A DNA stretch of 64,000 bases from the IMG/VR virus record IMGVR_UViG_3300010163_003659, positions 1-64,000 of that record, one strand, 5' to 3'. Every line of letters begins with the position of its first letter. Within the stretch, counting starts at the first letter, position 1. The notes beneath the pieces are model-generated. The model was given only the letters and a program-made list of their open reading frames with translations, did not search any database and had not been told where the DNA came from. Origin of the DNA: a virus. Taxonomy: Duplodnaviria > Caudoviricetes. Below, one piece after another: positions 42,552 through 55,361 of this stretch. The translations under genes were made by a program, and so were the position numbers.

Positions 42552-42920
42552 GAACTCACGAGCGTTAAGGAAACGGTTCTTCCAGAAGAGAATTCCGGTA
42601 TATAGGAAAAATCCTGTCATATTCGCAAGGGAGGTATTGTTATTTGAGCCGGATGAATGGCAAATGGCGGCATTGATGGACTTGGCAGAGAATCCGAAAG
42701 TTGCGATTAAATCTGGGCAAGGTGTTGGAAAAACAGGTTTAGAAGCTGTGGCACTGCTGTGGTTTTTATGCTGCCACCCATATCCGAGGATTGTAGCGAC
42801 TGCACCAACCAAACAGCAGCTACACGATGTGTTGTGGTCCGAAGTCAGCAAATGGATGAGCAAGTCTCCTTTGCTCTCAGAAATCCTCAAGTGGACTAAG
42901 ACATATATCTACATGGTTGG
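42538..42920 (+). CDS. terL: Terminase large subunit, 5' part (interrupted)
   Basis: PDEWQ, Walker A SGQGVGKT, ATAPTKQQL; terL similarity stops at the att repeat. Confidence 0.9.
42900..42920 (+). repeat. attL of inserted element
   Basis: GACATATATCTACATGGTTGG; 19/21 identical to 63340-63360. Confidence 0.9.
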
Positions 42921-47584: not shown

Positions 47585-48220
47585 ATGATGGGAGCATTTG
47601 GTAAAGATTTGTTAACCCAACACGAGATGATAACCTTGGCATCAATTGTACAGGTTGGAGATGCTACTTACTTTGATTTGCTAGAGGCAGAAAGACCGAT
47701 GTTTGCGCATCCGTATTTCACTGATTTGAAGGGAAGAGTACGGACGAAACTTGTACAGATGCAGTGTGAGATGGAGCACTATGACGGCAAGTTCCCATTT
47801 GCGTTTTCTGAACGGGAATTTTGCTATGGGCATAAAGTGCCAGAATTAAGGAATAAGTATATGATAATCCATTTTGCACAAAGTAATTCGCCGACTTCCC
47901 TTCCAAGCAAGGCTGATTACAAATGTGAATTGACATTTAACAATGATTCGTTGTACCGTCAAATGAGATTTGACTTTTTAGGAGAACAAAAATATGTTAA
48001 AGAGCCATATTATGGCATTTTGGTTTTCGGAGGCCGGCAGGGAAAGACATTTTGCCGTTTACAGTTTCCGGAGCCGGGATACAGGGCTATTGCAGATTAC
48101 ATTGATATACCTATGATGAGTTTGGTGCCTGAAAAGGAGGAAACAAAGAAATTTGAAAGGAAAAAGGCGATACTGAGGGAGGAATTTCTAGCTCATAATG
48201 TCAGGGAAGAAGTATTATGA
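47585..48220 (+). CDS. Hypothetical protein; putative toxin of RosmerTA-like pair
   Basis: Translationally coupled (ATGA) to XRE-ImmA gene; own promoter TTGACA 47526. Confidence 0.45.
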   Translation: MMGAFGKDLLTQHEMITLASIVQVGDATYFDLLEAERPMFAHPYFTDLKGRVRTKLVQMQCEMEHYDGKFPFAFSEREFCYGHKVPELRNKYMIIHFAQSNSPTSLPSKADYKCELTFNNDSLYRQMRFDFLGEQKYVKEPYYGILVFGGRQGKTFCRLQFPEPGYRAIADYIDIPMMSLVPEKEETKKFERKKAILREEFLAHNVREEVL

Positions 48221-49374
48221 AAAATAGTGTCATTCCAAGCCGCATAACAGAGGCACGTGAGGCTTGTGCATTGTCAATGGGGGATTTGGCAGAAAGAATA
48301 GGGGTTACGAGGCAGTCTGTTTCAAAATATGAAAGAGGAATTATGAGCCCTTCACTTGATGTCTTACAGTCAATTTCAGTTTTATTGCATTTCCCGGTTG
48401 ATTTTTTTTATAAAGAAGAGCTGGGAATAAGCACAGGAACAAGCCCGTTATTTTTTCGTTCTAAATCCAATATTTCCAAAAAAGTAAAGATGGCATGTAA
48501 GCACCAGGTAAAATGGGTTTGTGAGATAAGAAAACAGTTGGAAAGATATGTTAAATTTGTTGACCAGAACACTCTTGTAGTTGATGTGGATTATGAGAAT
48601 CTGCAGGATAGTGACATTGAAGAAATAGCTCTGTCGGTAAGACATGAGTGGGAACTTGGTGATGCTCCTATAGATGATTTGATAGGTATTTTAGAGAATC
48701 AGGGGATAATTGTAGCCCAATTTTCGGGAAATGATTTCTGCTCCTTTAATGGAATTGATGCGTATTCCTCATGGTATGGCGGAATACCTTATATAATTTA
48801 CAATTCAATGCAGAAAAGTGCTGTCCGTACAAGGTTTAGTATTCTTCATGAGTTGGGGCATTTAATTTTTCACAGTTCTGTTTCAGAAGAAGATGCAGTA
48901 AAAAAAGAAGTTGTTGATTTTGCAGATATGCAGGCAGACAGATTTGCAGCAGCTTTTCTTTTGCCGTCCACCTCTTTCCCGAAAGATGTAAGGGGAACCT
49001 CTTTGGCTTATTTAGAGATAATCAAAAAGAAATGGGGAGCTGCAATGTCTACCATAATCAGGCGTTGCGAGACATTAGACCTTTTGACGGATAATCAAAT
49101 CGGGTATTTGAAAAGGCAAATGACAACAAACAAGTATTGGCATAAGGAGCCCCTGGATGATGTGCTGCAGATTGAGCCGCCGGAGATGTTACGTGATGCG
49201 GTTTATCTGTTGATAGATAACAATATAATCACAAAACATACTTTTTTGGACTTATGTGCTTTGCCACCAAAGGATTTACAGTGCATATGCTCATTGCCGG
49301 ATGGCTTTTTTGGCAGTCCCCTGCAGAAGCAAAAACCTGTTTTAAGAGTGGTGAGGGAGGGGGAAGATTTTTGA
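48217..49374 (+). CDS. XRE HTH - ImmA/IrrE (M78) metallopeptidase fusion
   Basis: LAERIGVTRQSVSKYERG; RFSILHELGH; QADRFAAAFLLP. Confidence 0.9.
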   Translation: MKNSVIPSRITEAREACALSMGDLAERIGVTRQSVSKYERGIMSPSLDVLQSISVLLHFPVDFFYKEELGISTGTSPLFFRSKSNISKKVKMACKHQVKWVCEIRKQLERYVKFVDQNTLVVDVDYENLQDSDIEEIALSVRHEWELGDAPIDDLIGILENQGIIVAQFSGNDFCSFNGIDAYSSWYGGIPYIIYNSMQKSAVRTRFSILHELGHLIFHSSVSEEDAVKKEVVDFADMQADRFAAAFLLPSTSFPKDVRGTSLAYLEIIKKKWGAAMSTIIRRCETLDLLTDNQIGYLKRQMTTNKYWHKEPLDDVLQIEPPEMLRDAVYLLIDNNIITKHTFLDLCALPPKDLQCICSLPDGFFGSPLQKQKPVLRVVREGEDF

Positions 49375-50466: not shown

Positions 50467-51120
50467 ATGGGACAAAGAGTTAAAAACGAACTAAATAATG
50501 TCTCGATTGGAGGCAGCTATATTGGCAGGAGTAGTATAGTTAATAATTATTATATTCATCAGGCAGAAACAGGAACAGAAGGGAGCAGGGATGACAAAAC
50601 AATATTCATTTCCTATAACTGGCATGATGGGAAGATTGCAGACAGGATTGACAGGCATCTGTCAGGGCTTCCAAGTGTAACTGTAAAAAGGGATGTGCGT
50701 GACATTGGCCCATGGAAAAGCATCCGAGAGTTTATGGAAGGCATCCGGCAGCAGGATTATGCGGTTTTCATTGTCAGCGATTCTTATCTGAAATCAAAAA
50801 ATTGTATGTTTGAGGTTACAGAAATGATGAAAGAACAGGAGTATGCGGACAGAATTTTCCCGGCCGTTGTGGAAACCGACATATATGATCCGTTGGTACG
50901 TGCCAGATACATAAGTTACTGGCAGCAGGAATGTGATAAGCTGGAGGCTGCTGTAAAGGGGCTGGATCCGGCCAATGCAGTTGAGCTGGCAGCAGATTTG
51001 AAATGTTATAAAAATATTGCATCTTCTGTAGGGGAGTTTTTAAGCATAGTTGCAGACAGGAACAATCCGGATATCCATGAGGTAGAGGTACAGATAGAGA
51101 AAGCATTACTGAAGAACTGA
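50467..51120 (+). CDS. TIR-domain protein with N-terminal amyloid-like motif
   Basis: IFISYNWHD, RDVRDI, VSDSYLKSKNCMFEV (catalytic Glu); N/G/S/Y-rich first 30 aa. Confidence 0.9.
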   Translation: MGQRVKNELNNVSIGGSYIGRSSIVNNYYIHQAETGTEGSRDDKTIFISYNWHDGKIADRIDRHLSGLPSVTVKRDVRDIGPWKSIREFMEGIRQQDYAVFIVSDSYLKSKNCMFEVTEMMKEQEYADRIFPAVVETDIYDPLVRARYISYWQQECDKLEAAVKGLDPANAVELAADLKCYKNIASSVGEFLSIVADRNNPDIHEVEVQIEKALLKN

Positions 51121-51139
51121 CTGATAAGGGGGAATTACT

Positions 51140-53521
51140 ATGGATCAGAGAATAAATAATCACTTTAAGGGTGGTAACATAGAAGGCGATTATGTAGGGG
51201 GGAATCAGACAAAAAACTACTATATATCCATGTTTCAAGATTTAGAGCGAGAGTTTGTTGTTACACATAATGCCGATATCAAGCCAGTGTCCTATTTTAC
51301 TGGACGAGAAACAGAGCTGCAGGAGTTGCGCCAGCGGCTAGAGGAAGGGCGCAAGTCTGTTCTAGTAAGCGGGATGGGTGGCATTGGAAAAACACATATC
51401 TGCCGGAAGCTGTTTGAGGAATACACCAAAAAACATGCTGATGGTGAGGATATACCTTTCTGCCATATTGGATATGTTGAGTATAATGGGGATATGGGCA
51501 GCAGTCTGCAAACCTGTTTAAAATTTAAGGAGCAGGACGATTCGGGGCAGAATCAAGAAGCGGCATGGAGAGAACTGGAATATCTAGCGGCAGGTGGGAA
51601 ACTTCTGCTGTTTGTGGATAATGTAGACAAGCCTGTAAACGCTGATCCAGGATTGCAGAGGCTAAAGGGGATTCCCGGAGCGGTTATTTTGACATCTCGG
51701 CAGGCTTCTTTTAGTGATGAATTTGAACCATACCCGATAGGTTTCCTTGATATGGAGCAGTGTAAAGAGATTTATGAGAAAATCCGGTTTAAGGGCAGTA
51801 AGAGAAAAGTCAGACTGGAGGAAGAACAGGATTTGAAATATGTCATAGAGGATTTGGCTGGGAGGCATACCATTACAGTTGAACTTCTGGCGCATTTGGC
51901 ACGTACAAAAACATGGACAGTGAAAAGGCTTAGAGAAGAGTTGGGGCAAAAAGGGTTCTGTCTGGCATTTCATAAGAACGGGAAACTTGTCAATATCCAA
52001 AAATCTTATGAAGTGCTTTATGATTTGTCCAAACTGACAGAAGCAGAGCAAAACATTCTGGAGGCTTTTTCAATATTTCCGTATATTTCTTTGGAGGCAG
52101 AGATATGTAATCAATGGCTGCTTGCGGATGCTGGAGTAAGTGAAGAAGATGATATCTTAATGGGATTATATCAGAAAGGTTGGCTGCAGTTTGATATAGA
52201 GCAGGGAAGCTATGCTATGCATCCTGTGTTTGCGAAATTTATTTATGAAAGATGTAAGCCAAAATTGGAAGGGCATCGTGGATTGATAGAGGGATGTCAG
52301 AAGTGTTTGGAAATACCAGAAAGCGGTTCTGTTATGGAGTGCCAGCATTTTATTCCTTTTGCAGAGAATATTTTGAAAAAAATCAGCATGGAAAATGAAA
52401 TAGAACATGTTCAGTTTATGGACATATTGGCATATTCACTACAACATACAAGGGAGTATGCAAAAGCAGAAGTATTATACGAAAAGATTTTACAGATTAG
52501 AAAGAAATTGTATGGACAAAAACATCCAGATACAGCTACCGGTTATAATAATTTAGCAGCTGCATATGCTGAACAGGAAAAGGATAAAGAAGCGAAAAAA
52601 TTGTATAAAAAAGCTTTGTTGATAAGAGAGAAAGTGTTAGGGGAGGAGCATCCAGATACAGCTGACAGTTATAATAATTTGGCAGGGGTTTATTCCAAGC
52701 AGGGGAAGTGCTGGAAAGCAGAGGGACTACATAAAAGAGCCTTGTTGATAAGAGAGAAAGTGTTAGGGGAGGAGCATCCAGATACAGCTGACAGTTATAA
52801 TAATTTGGCAGTGATATATGCTGAACAAGAAAAGTACAGGAAAGCAGAAAGGTTCTGTAAAAGAGCCTTGTTGATAAGAGAGAAAGTGTTAGGGGGGGAG
52901 CATCTAGAGACAGCTAATAGTTATAATAATTTGGCAAGGATATATGCTGGTCAAGAGAAATATAAGGAAGCAGAAGAACTGCATAAAAAAGCCTTGTCGG
53001 TAAGAGAGAGGGTGTTGGGAGAGGATTATCCAGATATAGCTTATAGTTATGATAGTCTTGCAGAGATAAATGAGATTCGAGAGAAGTATAAAGAAGCAGA
53101 AGAATTATATAGAAAAAGCCTACAAATAAGAATGAAAGTGCTAGGGGAAGAATATCCAGATACAGTCATGAGTTATCTCAACTTGGCAAGTGTGTTGAGT
53201 GAACAAGGAAAGTATGGGAAAGCAGAAGAGTTGTATAAAAAGGGTATACAGATAGGTGAAAGCGTTATGGGAAAAGAACATTCATATACAGCTATAGGTT
53301 ATAATAATTTGGCAGGAGTATATATAGAACAAGGAAAGATTGACAGGGCAATAATATATTATCATAAGGCTTATCAAGTTTTTGTGAACAAATTTGGAAG
53401 AGATGATCCAGATACACAAGTTGTATATGGAAATTTGGAAGCGATATACAGAGCATATAATCCAGAAGGCAATTTTGAACAGTGGCTGGAAGAAAAGATG
53501 AAAGAAGCAGATTTGGATTAA
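51140..53521 (+). CDS. NLR-like STAND NTPase (NB-ARC) with ~8 TPR repeats
   Basis: GMGGIGKT, LLLFVDNV, ILTSR, MHP; 42-aa repeats LGEEHPDTADSYNNLA. Confidence 0.9.
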   Translation: MDQRINNHFKGGNIEGDYVGGNQTKNYYISMFQDLEREFVVTHNADIKPVSYFTGRETELQELRQRLEEGRKSVLVSGMGGIGKTHICRKLFEEYTKKHADGEDIPFCHIGYVEYNGDMGSSLQTCLKFKEQDDSGQNQEAAWRELEYLAAGGKLLLFVDNVDKPVNADPGLQRLKGIPGAVILTSRQASFSDEFEPYPIGFLDMEQCKEIYEKIRFKGSKRKVRLEEEQDLKYVIEDLAGRHTITVELLAHLARTKTWTVKRLREELGQKGFCLAFHKNGKLVNIQKSYEVLYDLSKLTEAEQNILEAFSIFPYISLEAEICNQWLLADAGVSEEDDILMGLYQKGWLQFDIEQGSYAMHPVFAKFIYERCKPKLEGHRGLIEGCQKCLEIPESGSVMECQHFIPFAENILKKISMENEIEHVQFMDILAYSLQHTREYAKAEVLYEKILQIRKKLYGQKHPDTATGYNNLAAAYAEQEKDKEAKKLYKKALLIREKVLGEEHPDTADSYNNLAGVYSKQGKCWKAEGLHKRALLIREKVLGEEHPDTADSYNNLAVIYAEQEKYRKAERFCKRALLIREKVLGGEHLETANSYNNLARIYAGQEKYKEAEELHKKALSVRERVLGEDYPDIAYSYDSLAEINEIREKYKEAEELYRKSLQIRMKVLGEEYPDTVMSYLNLASVLSEQGKYGKAEELYKKGIQIGESVMGKEHSYTAIGYNNLAGVYIEQGKIDRAIIYYHKAYQVFVNKFGRDDPDTQVVYGNLEAIYRAYNPEGNFEQWLEEKMKEADLD
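52616..52811 (+). repeat. 126-bp-period TPR coding repeats
   Basis: 52616-52685 identical to 52742-52811 (70 bp). Confidence 0.85.
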
Positions 53522-53725
53522 GTCATAGGCACGATATTGGCTAATGGTAATGGATGCACTGATTCTGCTGCCGTACAGCAGTAGATATTGTTATGTTGAA
53601 ATAGTGGAATTTATGCAGGACCTTAGTGATGAGGAACTGGAGACATTGAACAGGCAAGTAAATCAGGCGATGGAGCATGTTCGCATCGTTTACAAATGAA
53701 ACAAAATGTGGAAGGGGAATGTACC

Positions 53726-54322
53726 ATGAAGAGAGAAACAACTCCGATCAGAGTGACGGATAAGATTATGGAATTATGCAGCGGGATAGTACCGGATGCG
53801 AAACCGGAATATGTTTCGGTTAAAGTGCAGGAATGGAGCAGACCAATGGAATGTTTTCCCAATGTGGAGCGTATGGTTCAAGAGCAGGGCGGGCAGCAGA
53901 TTAATGGTTGGGCAATCTGGCAATGGGCGAATATCCTTGTAGAGGCCGAGGCTCATTCTGTGTGGCAAAGTCCGAAAGGGGAACTGATGGATATTACCCC
54001 TCATGACAATGGGGAAAGGGAAATCCTATTCCTGCATGATGCTGGCATGGTGTATTCCGGGCAGAGCATTGGAAATGTAAGGCTTGCCATCACCGGATCA
54101 CCGCTGGCTGCTGAAATGGTCGATCTCGGCGATAAGATAGATGCGGTCATGTGCAGTTACAAGCCAGGAACGGAAATTCCACTTTGGGAGCTACGGCGCC
54201 GACTGCTGCCACTAAAGGAGCAGAGGGAGGCAATCGTGGGGATGTTGAACCAGAAAGCCAGCAGGAATGCCCCTTGCCCATGCCAGTCTGGATTAAAGTA
54301 CAAGAAATGCTGTGGGAGGTAA
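53726..54322 (+). CDS. SEC-C motif protein
   Basis: C-terminal SRNAPCPCQSGLKYKKCCG; ECFPNV...GWAIW...EAHSVW...DITP. Confidence 0.75.
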   Translation: MKRETTPIRVTDKIMELCSGIVPDAKPEYVSVKVQEWSRPMECFPNVERMVQEQGGQQINGWAIWQWANILVEAEAHSVWQSPKGELMDITPHDNGEREILFLHDAGMVYSGQSIGNVRLAITGSPLAAEMVDLGDKIDAVMCSYKPGTEIPLWELRRRLLPLKEQREAIVGMLNQKASRNAPCPCQSGLKYKKCCGR

Positions 54323-54325
54323 GTT

Positions 54326-54907
54326 ATGATATTTGATGTTATTTTCAGCATCCTTTCAACAGTTATTAGTTCAACTTCTCTTATATTTATTAAAGAGGTT
54401 TTTGACAGAAAGCAGAACCATCAGGAAAATAAAGAAATCCAAGAAGATGCTGAGAAGATTATTGGAGATACATTTAAAAGTGATGATGTAATTGACTTGA
54501 TGCTAAAAAATGTTCGTGAATTGAGAGAGTATTACATAATCAGCAAAAGACAGGCAACAAATGCGTTTTCTGCTTCACTGATAGTCTGCTTTTTGGGTTT
54601 TATTGTTTATATTGCGGGTATCGCTGTATTTGTTATTTCTGGAGAAAATGCATTACTGTTAACTACCATATCAGGAACAATAGTGGAAGTAATTTCCGGA
54701 TTATTTTTCTGGCTTTATAGACATGCAATTAAGCAGTTAAATATTTATCATCAGAGATTAGGTACAACAGAGAAGTATCTGACAGCAATTCGTTTAGTGG
54801 ATAAAATGGGACAGGATAAGCATGATGATATGTACAAGCATATTATTGAATGTGTTTTAATAGATAATCGTATGCAATCAAATGAGGAAAATGAAAAAGA
54901 GCAGTAA
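54326..54907 (+). CDS. TRADD-N-associated 2TM-like membrane protein
   Basis: EYY..SKRQA..AF..S....LGF...TM-TM..FFWLY.....L..YHQRL pattern. Confidence 0.55.
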   Translation: MIFDVIFSILSTVISSTSLIFIKEVFDRKQNHQENKEIQEDAEKIIGDTFKSDDVIDLMLKNVRELREYYIISKRQATNAFSASLIVCFLGFIVYIAGIAVFVISGENALLLTTISGTIVEVISGLFFWLYRHAIKQLNIYHQRLGTTEKYLTAIRLVDKMGQDKHDDMYKHIIECVLIDNRMQSNEENEKEQ

Positions 54908-55118: not shown

Positions 55119-55361
55119 ATGATAGGGGGAATGGTGGAAATGATGGAAGTGTTTAATGTTATTAGTGGAGTATGTTCCATTGTTGGACTGTCTGTTTCTC
55201 TTTTTACGGCCAGCAAGGTGATTAAAATAACGCAGAACATTAACAGTGGCAATGTAGATGACCATTCAAAGGTTGTTAATGGAGGCAAAGGCAATACATA
55301 TAATGGGCCATATGCAGGGAGGGATTATACGAATGAGACGAGAAGTGGACAACAGAAATAA
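55119..55361 (+). CDS. Small single-TM protein with C-terminal amyloid-like motif
   Basis: Hydrophobic VFNVISGVCSIVGLSVSLFTA, then N/G-rich tail with GNTYNGPYAGRDY; start may be 55131-55143. Confidence 0.75.
   Translation: MIGGMVEMMEVFNVISGVCSIVGLSVSLFTASKVIKITQNINSGNVDDHSKVVNGGKGNTYNGPYAGRDYTNETRSGQQK

What the first reader, a model, noticed from the sequence alone, without database searches (positions are those of the whole stretch)
50467..53521. TIR effector and NLR share a cognate N-terminal amyloid-like signalling motif
Seen: the TIR protein begins MGQRVKNELNNVSIGGSYIGRSSIVNNYYI and the adjacent NB-ARC-TPR protein begins MDQRINNHFKGGNIEGDYVGGNQTKNYYI. They align as M-x-Q-R-x-x-N-x6-I-x-G-x-Y-x-G-x(5-6)-N-Y-Y-I, although the rest of the two proteins is unrelated. 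The NLR has no effector domain of its own, and the TIR keeps the catalytic Glu (CMFE). Known: fungal NWD2/HET-S, RHIM and bacterial BASS motifs link an NLR to a separately encoded effector by amyloid templating. Inference: phage sensing by the TPRs nucleates a G-x-Y-x-G amyloid that clusters the TIR NADase and causes abortive infection. Such systems are mostly described from filamentous/multicellular bacteria, so one on a Clostridial satellite, with the motif N-terminal on the TIR, looks new.
Basis: partly seen in the sequence, partly recalled or inferred. Interest (0 to 1): 0.9.

Follow-up and report, generated by a model that had tools for sequence, protein, structure and literature searches.

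The report
Shared signalling tag links TIR and NLR
A TIR enzyme of the NAD-destroying immune type and the sensor protein encoded next to it start with the same conserved ~28-residue sticky tag, which most likely lets the activated sensor switch on the enzyme by prion-like templating; this is a new variant of a known bacterial design, not a new kind.

Summary
A 217-aa TIR_2 protein (50467-51120) and the adjacent 793-aa NB-ARC/TPR protein (51140-53521) share an N-terminal motif of about 28 residues. Their alignment score is 57, against 21±4.5 for shuffled sequences (z 8).

The motif is functional at the protein level:
- It is kept in more than 100 listed TIR homologues (68-93% identical, gut Lachnospiraceae).
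- In 26 of 28 loci with readable flanks an NLR carrying the same motif lies beside the TIR gene.
- The motif has dN/dS of about 0.17, while the linker behind it varies freely.
- Partners co-vary weakly but significantly (p 0.0003-0.004).
- AlphaFold2 models residues 1-40 as disordered.
- The motif is rich in N and G and almost free of proline.

A second pair 4 kb downstream (a 73-aa membrane peptide and NLR2) uses a distinct variant, with the motif at the effector's C-terminus. A motif profile also finds membrane peptides with two tandem copies, as in HET-s, inside DUF2326 ABC-ATPase operons.

The best reading is a BASS-type amyloid-like signalling tag. Amyloid formation, NADase activity and phage defence are untested. 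Amyloid signalling with TIR partners and in antiphage defence is already published (Dyrka 2020; Ibarlosa 2024). The new points are the motif family, the N-to-N topology, the host clade and the paired modules. This scan has noted BASS-like pairs on other DNA.

The parts
50467..51120 (+). TIR effector gene (217 aa): N-terminal motif, variable linker, TIR_2 domain and C-terminal helices
   Evidence: ORF and ribosome-binding site. Pfam TIR_2 E 6e-17. AlphaFold2 gives a TIR fold from residue 44, and the best Foldseek matches are the plant NLR TIR NADases L6, RPP1, RUN1 and Roq1.
50467..50553 (+). Effector-side signalling motif (residues 1-29), pattern M-x-Q-x-[IV]-x-N-x-L-x4-[IV]-x-G-x-Y-x-G-G-[ND]-x3-N-x-Y-Y
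   Evidence: Conserved in nearly all of the 120 listed homologues. pN 0.26 against pS 0.69. pLDDT is about 26, i.e. disordered in the monomer. No Pfam or NCBIfam family covers it.
50554..50595 (+). Variable polar linker (residues 30-43) between the motif and the TIR domain
   Evidence: Length and sequence vary among homologues. pN 0.51, about twice that of the motif.
50812..50814 (+). Codon of E116, the putative catalytic glutamate of the TIR NADase site
   Evidence: Invariant in alignment A1. Aligns with the Glu of 'WCLDEL' in the plant TIR NADases RPPT, RPV1/RUN1 and L7.
51140..53521 (+). NLR1 gene (793 aa): N-terminal motif, NB-ARC NOD module, TPR array
   Evidence: Pfam NB-ARC, AAA_16, TPR_12 and TPR_10. 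It starts 19 nt after the TIR stop codon and has its own ribosome-binding site.
51140..51226 (+). Sensor-side signalling motif (residues 1-29), joined directly to the conserved start of the NOD module
   Evidence: Aligns with the TIR motif at z 8.0. Conserved in 22 NLR orthologues (alignment A2).
51371..51394 (+). Walker A (P-loop) of NLR1, residues 78-85
   Evidence: G-M-G-G-I-G-K-T read directly from the translation, inside the NB-ARC match.
52529..53470 (+). TPR repeat array of NLR1 (about residues 464-777), the presumed ligand sensor
   Evidence: TPR_12 in 7 stretches (E 1e-91) and TPR_10 in 8 stretches.
55140..55361 (+). Second module, effector: 73-aa peptide with one very conserved N-terminal hydrophobic helix (acidic residue at position 2-3) and a C-terminal G-P-Y-A-G-R-D motif
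   Evidence: ORF. 90 homologue clusters, usually called as genes of 70-73 aa.
55333..57720 (+). Second module, sensor: NLR2, 67% identical to NLR1 from the NOD module onward, but with a different N-terminal motif (G-P-Y-A-G-R-D) that matches its own upstream peptide. Its TPR array is cut to about 2 repeats and followed by a TM helix and an unassigned ~270-aa region.
   Evidence: BLASTP of NLR1 against NLR2. The ATG at 55333 has a G-rich ribosome-binding site inside the first motif copy. Motif score 53 against 20±4 (z 8.2), while cross-pairs score z 4.4 and 2.1. The C-terminal 273 aa have no Pfam hit.

Best explanation
This is a two-gene immune module of the NLR plus amyloid-signalling-motif type. 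NLR1 is the sensor and the TIR protein is the executioner. They are coupled only by a shared, intrinsically disordered N-terminal tag of about 28 residues.

Proposed mechanism. A ligand, presumably phage-derived, is bound by the TPR array. This drives nucleotide-dependent oligomerisation of the NB-ARC module. Oligomerisation brings several N-terminal tags together, because each tag is joined directly to the NOD module. The clustered tags nucleate an ordered cross-beta fold of beta-arch type. That fold templates the same fold in the tags of free TIR molecules. The TIR domains, on a 14-residue flexible linker, are thereby concentrated, assemble, and become active NAD+-consuming enzymes. The result is growth arrest or death of the infected cell (abortive infection).

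A second module in the same island works in parallel. It consists of a 73-aa membrane peptide and NLR2, and it uses a diverged variant of the tag, giving largely insulated signalling with a membrane-disrupting output.

Shown here: the gene pair, the domains, the shared tag, its conservation, purifying selection, partner co-variation, disorder in the monomer, N/G-rich and Pro-free composition, its portability between effector and sensor classes, and its tandem doubling on membrane effectors. Inferred: the cross-beta or amyloid state, templating, NADase activity, the ligand, and defence.
For: (1) The motif similarity is far above chance, at z 8.0 for this pair and z 8.2 for the second pair. Cross-pairs reach only z 4.4 and 2.1.

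(2) 210 TIR homologues have E <= 0.001. The 120 best are 68-93% identical and nearly all keep the tag, whereas the linker behind it varies.

(3) Among 28 loci (27 fetched plus the window) with a tagged TIR and readable flanks, 26 have a tagged NB-ARC gene beside it. It is immediately downstream in all but L010, where it lies just upstream. The two exceptions are L004 and L016, and L016 has a degenerate tag.

(4) TIR relatives at 57% identity or less lack the tag and lack the NLR neighbour. Most of them carry other, larger architectures.

(5) Selection acts on the protein. For the motif, pN is 0.26 and pS 0.69 (dN/dS about 0.17). For the linker, pN is 0.51.

(6) Partners co-vary. Cognate identity is 0.43-0.44 against 0.38-0.40 for non-cognate pairs, with permutation p 0.0002-0.004 before and after removing near-duplicates.
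- GGD occurs on both sides in L007, L089/L090 and L156/L163.
- 'YTGGNSI' occurs on both sides in L012.
- In L011 an NLR N-terminus is almost identical to its TIR N-terminus.
- In the second motif type, GPYAGRD, YVGRD, GD-x-VGRD and forms without Arg are matched between partners.

(7) NLR1 and NLR2 are 67% identical from the NOD module onward but differ in the tag, and each tag matches its own neighbour.

(8) AlphaFold2 models residues 1-40 as disordered (pLDDT about 26) next to a confident TIR fold.

(9) Composition is N 3.7-fold and G 4.1-fold enriched, P 0.03-fold and L 0.5-fold. This partly matches the BASS bias reported in 10.1101/2020.01.06.895854 (section 9).

(10) A 33-position profile of the tag finds 45 proteins at E <= 1e-3 among 1.84 billion representatives. 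They include small membrane proteins with two tandem copies of the tag. This is the effector-side doubling known from HET-s and from BASS1/6. AlphaFold2 places strands at matching positions in both copies, though at low confidence.

(11) E116 aligns with the catalytic Glu of plant TIR NADases.

(12) The module lies in a defence island next to a Rosmer system (RmrA E 1e-104).

(13) There is published precedent. BASS motifs pair NLRs with Bell, TIR2 and CHAT proteins, and Bab/Agp amyloid signalling gives abortive infection in E. coli.
Against: There is no direct evidence of an amyloid or cross-beta state.

No known amyloid-motif family in Pfam (the HET-s, sigma, PP and RHIM models named) matches, even at E <= 10. 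The BASS1-11 profiles could not be obtained for comparison.

The effector carries the tag at its N-terminus, whereas the published BASS and fungal effector motifs read here are C-terminal.

Co-variation is small in size, about 4 percentage points, and the permutation test is not fully corrected for phylogeny.

The window's own TIR tag departs from the consensus at two near-invariant positions (Gly-Gly-Asn to Gly-Arg-Ser).

The AlphaFold2 model of the two-repeat peptide has pLDDT of only about 50 in the repeats.

The ligand and the defence phenotype are unknown, and PADLOC has no model for this system.
Confidence: 0.6

Rival explanations
1. The tag is a homotypic adaptor that is not an amyloid. 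It acts like the effector-associated domains (EADs) of Kaur, Aravind and colleagues: it mediates finite, stoichiometric docking of TIR molecules onto the NLR oligomer, for example by beta-strand augmentation within the ring. There is no self-propagating templating.
For: All the genomic evidence fits this equally well: the same tag on sensor and effector in one locus, portability between effector classes, and co-variation. It matches the 'EAD principle' described in PMC8195603. The N-to-N topology is common for EAD pairs. No amyloid family profile matches.
Against: The tag is only about 28 residues, is modelled as disordered, and has no predicted helix or globular core. [quoted passage not shown] The N/G-rich, Pro-free composition and the tandem two-copy form on tiny membrane effectors are hallmarks of beta-solenoid-type amyloid motifs. 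No Pfam family covers the tag; I did not check whether this Pfam copy holds EAD models.
Confidence: 0.27
2. The shared N-terminus serves a common purpose other than coupling the partners. Examples are a localisation or degradation signal, or a docking site for a shared inhibitor. In this reading both proteins are regulated alike but do not contact each other through the tag.
For: The tag sits at the extreme N-terminus of both proteins, which is the usual place for sorting signals and degrons. Direct contact has not been shown.
Against: The tag also occurs at the C-terminus and in tandem internal copies of membrane peptides. Variants are matched within loci rather than being uniform within a host. 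Two distinct variants coexist in one island, each shared by one neighbouring pair. There is no signal-peptide-like hydrophobic core.
Confidence: 0.05
3. The similarity is a by-product of a recent duplication or gene conversion of the 5' gene ends, or a nucleotide-level signal such as a translation-initiation element, with no function for the protein motif.
For: In L011 an NLR N-terminus is nearly identical to that of its TIR, which shows that exchange between the two gene starts does occur.
Against: Synonymous sites in the motif are near saturation (pS 0.69) while the amino acids are kept (pN 0.26), and the adjacent linker is free to vary. The motif is maintained across more than 100 listed homologues (68-93% identical) and on unrelated protein classes.
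Confidence: 0.02

Closest known systems
BASS (bacterial amyloid signalling sequences) in Bell/NLR gene pairs, with TIR2, CHAT and hydrolase variants (Dyrka et al. 2020, bioRxiv 10.1101/2020.01.06.895854)
   Same: An effector-less NB-ARC/TPR NLR has a ~25-aa N-terminal motif repeated on the protein encoded by the adjacent collinear gene. The genes are tightly spaced or overlapping. The composition is N/G-rich and Pro-poor. Some effectors carry tandem pseudo-repeats. TIR is among the reported effector domains. The second pair in this window (hydrophobic-helix peptide with a C-terminal motif, then NLR2, overlapping by 29 nt) has the canonical layout.
   Different: In the TIR pair the effector-side motif is N-terminal, whereas the published screens looked only at effector C-termini. 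The hosts are gut Lachnospiraceae, not the Actinobacteria and Cyanobacteria that dominate the published BASS pairs. The membrane effector is far smaller (about 45 residues before the tail) than Bell domains (100-140 aa). Identity with any of BASS1-10 could not be tested.
Bab/Agp BASS11 abortive-infection system of E. coli (Ibarlosa et al. 2024, bioRxiv 10.1101/2024.11.07.622273)
   Same: A two-gene module on a prophage defence island in a unicellular bacterium. A small membrane-targeting effector is coupled to a TPR-containing sensor through a shared amyloid motif. BASS11 is also reported on TIR, CHAT, NACHT and NB-ARC proteins. Both motifs work with a non-NLR sensor: the TGP protein Agp there, and DUF2326 ABC ATPase operons for this motif.
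   Different: [quoted passage not shown] The effector motif there is C-terminal. Amyloid formation and defence have been shown experimentally there and not here. Sequence relatedness of the motifs could not be tested.
Fungal NWD2/HET-S and other HRAM, sigma and PP systems
   Same: The logic is the same: NLR oligomerisation nucleates an N-terminal motif that templates the effector. The effector may carry two pseudo-repeats that form a two-rung beta-solenoid. Several orthogonal motif subclasses can coexist in one genome to keep pathways separate.
   Different: There is no profile match to the Pfam HET-s, sigma, PP or RHIM families. This system is bacterial, and the effector in question is an enzyme (TIR) tagged at its N-terminus.
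Effector-associated domains (EADs) of prokaryotic conflict systems (Kaur et al. 2020/2021, PMC8195603)
   Same: The same small terminal module sits on a STAND NTPase and on separately encoded effectors in one locus. It widens the set of effectors that one sensor can recruit.
   Different: EADs are mostly folded alpha-helical, Death-like domains. This tag is a short, disordered, N/G/Y-rich peptide. No Pfam family matched the tag.

Membership tests
BASS-type NLR-associated amyloid signalling motif pairs | A short (~20-30 aa) motif is shared by the N-terminus of an effector-less NLR and a terminus of the protein encoded by the adjacent collinear gene | tested here: met
   Window pair z 8.0. Seen in 26 of 28 loci with readable flanks.
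BASS-type NLR-associated amyloid signalling motif pairs | The effector-side motif lies at the C-terminus of the effector | tested here: not met
   The TIR carries the motif at residues 1-29. The second pair in the window does meet this feature.
BASS-type NLR-associated amyloid signalling motif pairs | Composition biased to N, G, Q, V and I and depleted in P, L and K, with beta-strand propensity | tested here: inconclusive
   N 3.7-fold, G 4.1-fold, Q 1.5-fold, P 0.03-fold, L 0.5-fold and K 0.8-fold, but V and I are not enriched. AlphaFold2 predicts strands in the two-repeat relative, with pLDDT only about 50.
BASS-type NLR-associated amyloid signalling motif pairs | The sequence matches one of the BASS1-11 profile HMMs | not testable with these tools
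   The profiles and logos are not in any library offered, and the papers hold them only as images.
BASS-type NLR-associated amyloid signalling motif pairs | The motif forms amyloid fibrils or prion-like foci, and the NLR-side motif seeds the effector-side motif | not testable with these tools
   This needs ThT, EM, ssNMR or GFP-foci assays.
BASS-type NLR-associated amyloid signalling motif pairs | Partner motifs are more alike within a locus than between loci (cognate matching) | tested here: met
   0.43-0.44 against 0.38-0.40, p 0.0002-0.004. Matched variants in the second motif type.
Pfam amyloid-motif families named (HET-s, sigma, PP) and the RHIM motif | Profile match of the motif peptide | tested here: not met
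   hmmscan of the four motif peptides against the whole of Pfam-A at E <= 10 returned no family.
TIR-domain NADase effectors | TIR fold with the catalytic glutamate in the alpha-C helix | tested here: met
   Pfam TIR_2 E 6e-17. Foldseek matches to L6, RPP1, RUN1 and Roq1 TIRs. E116 aligns with the Glu of 'WCLDEL' and is invariant.
TIR-domain NADase effectors | NAD+ hydrolase or cyclase activity upon oligomerisation | not testable with these tools
   This requires an enzyme assay.
NLR-like STAND NTPases (NB-ARC + TPR) | NB-ARC NOD module with an intact P-loop, followed by a repeat sensor | tested here: met
   NB-ARC E 1.5e-9, AAA_16, and a TPR_12/TPR_10 array. Walker A read directly at residues 78-85.
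Effector-associated domains (EADs) | A folded small adaptor domain (mostly alpha-helical, Death-like) shared by NTPase and effector | tested here: not met
   The tag is shared, but it is modelled as disordered with no helix, and no Pfam family covers it.
Catalogued anti-phage systems (PADLOC-DB v2) | Match to a system-specific protein model | tested here: not met
   Only weak generic TIR and TPR hits for the TIR and NLR proteins. By contrast, RmrA and RmrT are found just upstream.

The most novel reading that the evidence does not exclude
The tag defines a new, widespread family of portable cross-beta signalling motifs in gut Firmicutes. It works in an N-terminus-to-N-terminus topology that the published C-terminus-restricted screens read here could not have detected. 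It is used by at least two unrelated sensor classes, NB-ARC NLRs and DUF2326 ABC-ATPase systems, and by at least four effector classes: TIR, a mini membrane helix, a two-repeat membrane peptide, and a ~200-aa unknown domain. It has diverged into orthogonal variants, so one mobile island can run two insulated death pathways, NAD+ depletion and membrane attack.
Probability: 0.4. Interest if true: 0.75.

Novelty: new variant of a known kind. Interest (0 to 1): 0.62.

Why it matters
Amyloid or prion-like signalling between an immune sensor and its executioner is established in fungi and mammals. In bacteria, function has been shown experimentally for only one system, Bab/Agp in E. coli.

This locus would extend the principle in four ways:
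- It reaches abundant, non-filamentous gut commensals (Lachnospiraceae) and their mobile elements.
- It includes an enzymatic (TIR) effector tagged at the N-terminus. That constrains how templating can activate a globular enzyme and points to clustering rather than refolding.
- It implies that motif screens limited to effector C-termini undercount such systems.
- It offers a natural pair of related but distinct tags in one island, which is a ready-made test of signalling specificity and cross-seeding.

It also links NLR pathways and ABC-ATPase (DUF2326) conflict systems through one shared tag.

Tried and rejected
- Comparison with the BASS1-11 profiles was not possible. The papers show them only as images, and no library holds them.
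- Family libraries. Pfam at E <= 10, NCBIfam and PADLOC give nothing for the tag.
- Deposited phage genomes (blastn, distant mode) gave no match. IMG/VR gave only one further locus, L083.
- The AlphaFold2 model of the two-repeat membrane peptide places matching strands in both repeats, but at pLDDT of about 50. I treat this as weak support only.
- Chance similarity is rejected by the shuffle test.
- A DNA-level or recent-duplication explanation is rejected by the synonymous versus non-synonymous pattern.
- A signal peptide or other targeting peptide is rejected. The tag also occurs C-terminally and in tandem, and its variants are matched per locus.
- Distant TIR_2 relatives (30-57% identity: Gammaproteobacteria, Algoriphagus, cyanobacteria, Anaerolineae, human-gut contigs) were checked for the tag and none has it.
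- Literature searches for amyloid signalling in Lachnospiraceae or Firmicutes found nothing specific.


Full report
**1. What is in the sequence**

The stretch 50467-53521 holds two collinear genes on the + strand, separated by 19 nt. Each has a purine-rich ribosome-binding site 6-8 nt before its ATG.

- The first gene encodes a 217-aa protein with a Pfam TIR_2 domain (E 6e-17, residues 46-158).
- The second encodes a 793-aa protein with NB-ARC (residues 57-265), AAA_16, and 7-8 TPR_12/TPR_10 repeats over about residues 464-777.
- Its P-loop is intact (residues 78-85, read directly).
- Only about 30 residues precede the conserved start of the NOD module, so the NLR has no effector domain of its own.

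They align over 29-30 positions with 12 identities, several conservative changes and one single-residue gap. The local alignment score is 57, against 21.1±4.5 for 20,000 shuffles of the same residues (z 8.0; no shuffle reached it).

**2. The motif is conserved, selected and tied to the gene pair**

The TIR protein has 210 homologues at E <= 0.001. The 120 best are 68-93% identical over the full length, and the sources name Lachnospiraceae, Eubacterium and Bacilli MAGs.

Nearly all of these begin with the same pattern: M-x-Q-x-[IV]-x-N-x-L-x4-[IV]-x-G-x-Y-x-G-G-[ND]-x3-N-x-Y-Y. A polar linker of variable length and sequence follows, and then the invariant start of the TIR domain.

I fetched loci from genome, metagenome and viral collections.
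- In 26 of 28 loci (27 fetched plus the window) with a tagged TIR and readable flanks, an NB-ARC gene carrying the same motif at its N-terminus lies beside it.
- It sits directly downstream in all but one locus (L010), where it lies directly upstream.
- The exceptions are L004 and L016. L016 has lost two near-invariant motif residues.
- TIR relatives at 57% identity or less lack both the tag and the NLR neighbour, and most carry other, larger architectures.

A joint alignment of both sides is clean over about 28 columns.

Codon analysis of 28 TIR genes gives these values:

| Region | pN | pS | dN/dS |
|---|---|---|---|
| Motif | 0.26 | 0.69 | about 0.17 |
| Linker | 0.51 | 0.78 | not computable (pS saturated) |
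| TIR domain | 0.11 | 0.72 | 0.05 |

The constraint is therefore on the peptide, not on the DNA.

**3. Cognate matching**

Across 25 non-redundant pairs, a TIR tag is more like its own NLR's tag (0.439) than like other NLRs' tags (0.402), with permutation p 2e-4. After removing near-duplicate lineages at three thresholds, p stays at 0.0003-0.004. The effect is small, and the test is not a full phylogenetic correction.

It is backed by specific cases:
- Gly-Gly-Asp instead of Gly-Gly-Asn on both sides in L007, L089/L090 and L156/L163.
- 'YTGGNSI' on both sides in L012.
- In L011, a second NLR whose first ~20 residues nearly copy the TIR's.

The clearest evidence is inside the window itself. A second NLR (start at 55333) is 67% identical to NLR1 from the NOD module onward but has a different N-terminal tag. 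That tag matches the C-terminus of the 73-aa peptide encoded just upstream, with a 29-nt overlap (55140-55361). The score is 53 against 20±4 (z 8.2), whereas the cross-pairs reach only z 4.4 and 2.1.

This peptide family has 90 clusters. It has an extremely conserved N-terminal hydrophobic helix with an acidic residue at position 2-3, and a C-terminal G-x-Y-x-G-R-D tail. In five further loci the tail variants are matched with the partner NLR: GPYAGRD, YVGRD, GD-x-VGRD, and forms without Arg.

**4. Properties of the tag**

- AlphaFold2 with a 46-sequence alignment gives a confident TIR fold from residue 44, but pLDDT of about 26 for residues 1-40.
- Relative to the TIR domain, the tag is 3.7-fold enriched in Asn and 4.1-fold in Gly. 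It is almost free of Pro (0.03-fold) and poor in Leu, Ala and Glu. This overlaps the bias reported for BASS motifs.
- No Pfam family matches the tag peptides even at E <= 10, which includes the HET-s, sigma and PP amyloid-motif models named. NCBIfam and PADLOC do not match it either.
- A 33-position profile built from 46 tags was searched against 1.84 billion representative proteins and found 45 proteins at E <= 1e-3.

Besides TIR and NLR N-termini, those 45 proteins include:
- divergent tagged TIRs;
- small proteins with an N-terminal tag and a C-terminal TM helix;
- ~200-aa proteins of unknown fold with an N-terminal tag;
- nine small membrane proteins with a TM helix followed by two tandem copies of the tag core (alignment A4).

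Two effector-side pseudo-repeats against one on the sensor is the arrangement known from HET-s and from BASS1/6. AlphaFold2 puts strands at equivalent positions in both copies, but with low confidence.

In three contigs, the two-repeat peptide and the tagged ~200-aa protein flank a DUF2326 ABC-type ATPase in one operon, with no NLR. The tag is therefore a portable coupling device used by more than one sensor class. Related Lachnospiraceae NLRs also carry other N-terminal motifs that are again repeated at the N-terminus of the upstream gene product (L155, L157, L159).

**5. The effector and the context**

The best structural matches of the TIR model are the plant NLR TIR domains L6, RPP1, RUN1 and Roq1. 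In profile alignments, the segment ending in 'CMFE' falls on the plant 'WCLDEL' helix, so E116 sits on the catalytic Glu. E116 is invariant in the family.

The genes lie in a 20.4-kb insert bounded by a 10-bp direct repeat that occurs exactly twice in the window (42908 and 63348). The insert interrupts a terminase-like ORF of an IMG/VR provirus record. It also carries a tyrosine integrase, sigma factors, an antirepressor, a Rosmer system (RmrA E 1e-104) and a SEC-C/TRADD-N-associated-2TM gene pair. The NLR is patchy: close or distant matches were found in 8 of 401 sampled genomes of the family. This distribution is typical of mobile defence genes.

**6. Interpretation**

The best-supported reading (confidence about 0.6) is a BASS-type amyloid-like signalling module. 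Ligand-driven NLR oligomerisation clusters the N-terminal tags. The tags nucleate a cross-beta fold that templates the tag on free TIR molecules. The concentrated TIR domains become active NADases, and the cell dies or arrests.

The main rival (about 0.27) is finite homotypic docking without amyloid, on the EAD principle (PMC8195603). It fits the genomics equally well. It fits the disorder, the composition and the tandem doubling less well.

A shared sorting or degradation signal (0.05) and a neutral duplication or DNA-level signal (0.02) are disfavoured by the matched variants and by the codon analysis. The remaining ~0.06 is left unassigned, for explanations not listed here.

**7. Comparison with what is known, and novelty**

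BASS motifs next to NLRs, including TIR2 effectors, were described in 2020. Amyloid signalling as an antiphage abortive-infection mechanism on E. coli prophage islands was shown in 2024, with BASS11 also found on TIR and NB-ARC proteins.

What looks new:
- The motif family itself. It matches no library family, and identity with BASS1-11 could not be tested.
- The N-terminal position on the effector. The published bacterial and fungal screens read here searched only effector C-termini, so this topology lay outside their search space.
- Its abundance in non-filamentous gut Lachnospiraceae.
- Two related but distinct tag variants in one mobile island.
- Use of the same tag in DUF2326 ATPase operons.

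I class it as a new variant of a known kind, with interest 0.62. This scan has already noted BASS-like pairs on other DNA, and the second pair and the terL insertion on this DNA.

**8. Limits**

Nothing here shows fibrils, templating, NADase activity, the ligand or defence. The window's own TIR tag carries Gly-Arg-Ser where the family has Gly-Gly-Asn. This makes its core look partly like the second tag type, and whether that permits cross-talk with NLR2 is unknown.

Noticed in passing
window 55140-55361 and 55333-57720: A second effector/NLR module. A 73-aa peptide (conserved hydrophobic helix, C-terminal G-P-Y-A-G-R-D tail) overlaps by 29 nt the start of NLR2, whose N-terminus repeats the tail. 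This is the canonical BASS layout with a miniature Bell-like effector. The family has 90 clusters, and tail variants are matched to partner NLRs in other loci.
   Followed up: yes
window 56899-57717: NLR2 keeps only about 2 TPR repeats. After them comes a basic stretch, a predicted TM helix and about 270 residues with no Pfam match. The sensor part appears to have been replaced.
   Followed up: partly
window 47585-49374: A Rosmer-type defence pair lies just upstream. RmrT-like (E 1e-6) is followed by RmrA (HTH plus M78 peptidase, PADLOC E 1e-104), and the genes overlap by 4 nt.
   Followed up: partly
window 53696-54907: A gene pair sits between the two NLR modules. One is a 208-aa protein ending in a SEC-C zinc motif. 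The other is a 193-aa protein with the cyanobacterial TRADD-N-associated 2-TM domain (PF20712, E 2e-17). It may be a third conflict module.
   Followed up: no
window 42908-42917 and 63348-63357: The 10-bp core TCTACATGGT occurs exactly twice and brackets a 20.4-kb insert that carries the whole defence island and a tyrosine integrase (61975-63183). The interrupted ORF has a P-loop and a weak terminase-ATPase hit, and it resumes after the insert.
   Followed up: partly
L167:269-3206, L169:2385-5258, L170:2333-5267: The same tag occurs in operons without an NLR. The gene order is: a ~200-aa unknown protein with an N-terminal tag, an 81-83-aa protein (not seen in L169), a 612-616-aa DUF2326 ABC-type ATPase, and an 85-88-aa membrane peptide with two tandem tag copies.
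   Followed up: partly
L155, L157, L159 (Lachnospiraceae genomes): More distant NB-ARC/TPR genes carry unrelated N-terminal motifs that are again repeated at the N-terminus of the upstream gene product. One example is an F-N-F-x-x-x-V...N-x-G-[ND]-V-x-[FL]-G-D motif. N-to-N motif pairs may therefore be common in this clade.
   Followed up: no
L011:7976-8059 versus L011:6001-6099: A second NLR in this locus has an N-terminus almost identical to that of the neighbouring TIR over about 20 residues. The first NLR there is truncated (294 aa). This looks like recent recombination that re-matched sensor and effector tags.
   Followed up: partly
window 50524-50532 (TIR residues 20-22): The window's TIR has Gly-Arg-Ser where the family has a near-invariant Gly-Gly-Asn; a 93% identical homologue keeps Gly-Gly-Asn. 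The change makes the core resemble the G-R-D of the second tag type, so cross-talk with NLR2 is conceivable.
   Followed up: no
L016:6001-6645: An orphan tagged TIR with no NLR nearby has lost two near-invariant tag residues (N7 to S, G20 to E). This fits relaxed constraint once the partner is gone.
   Followed up: no
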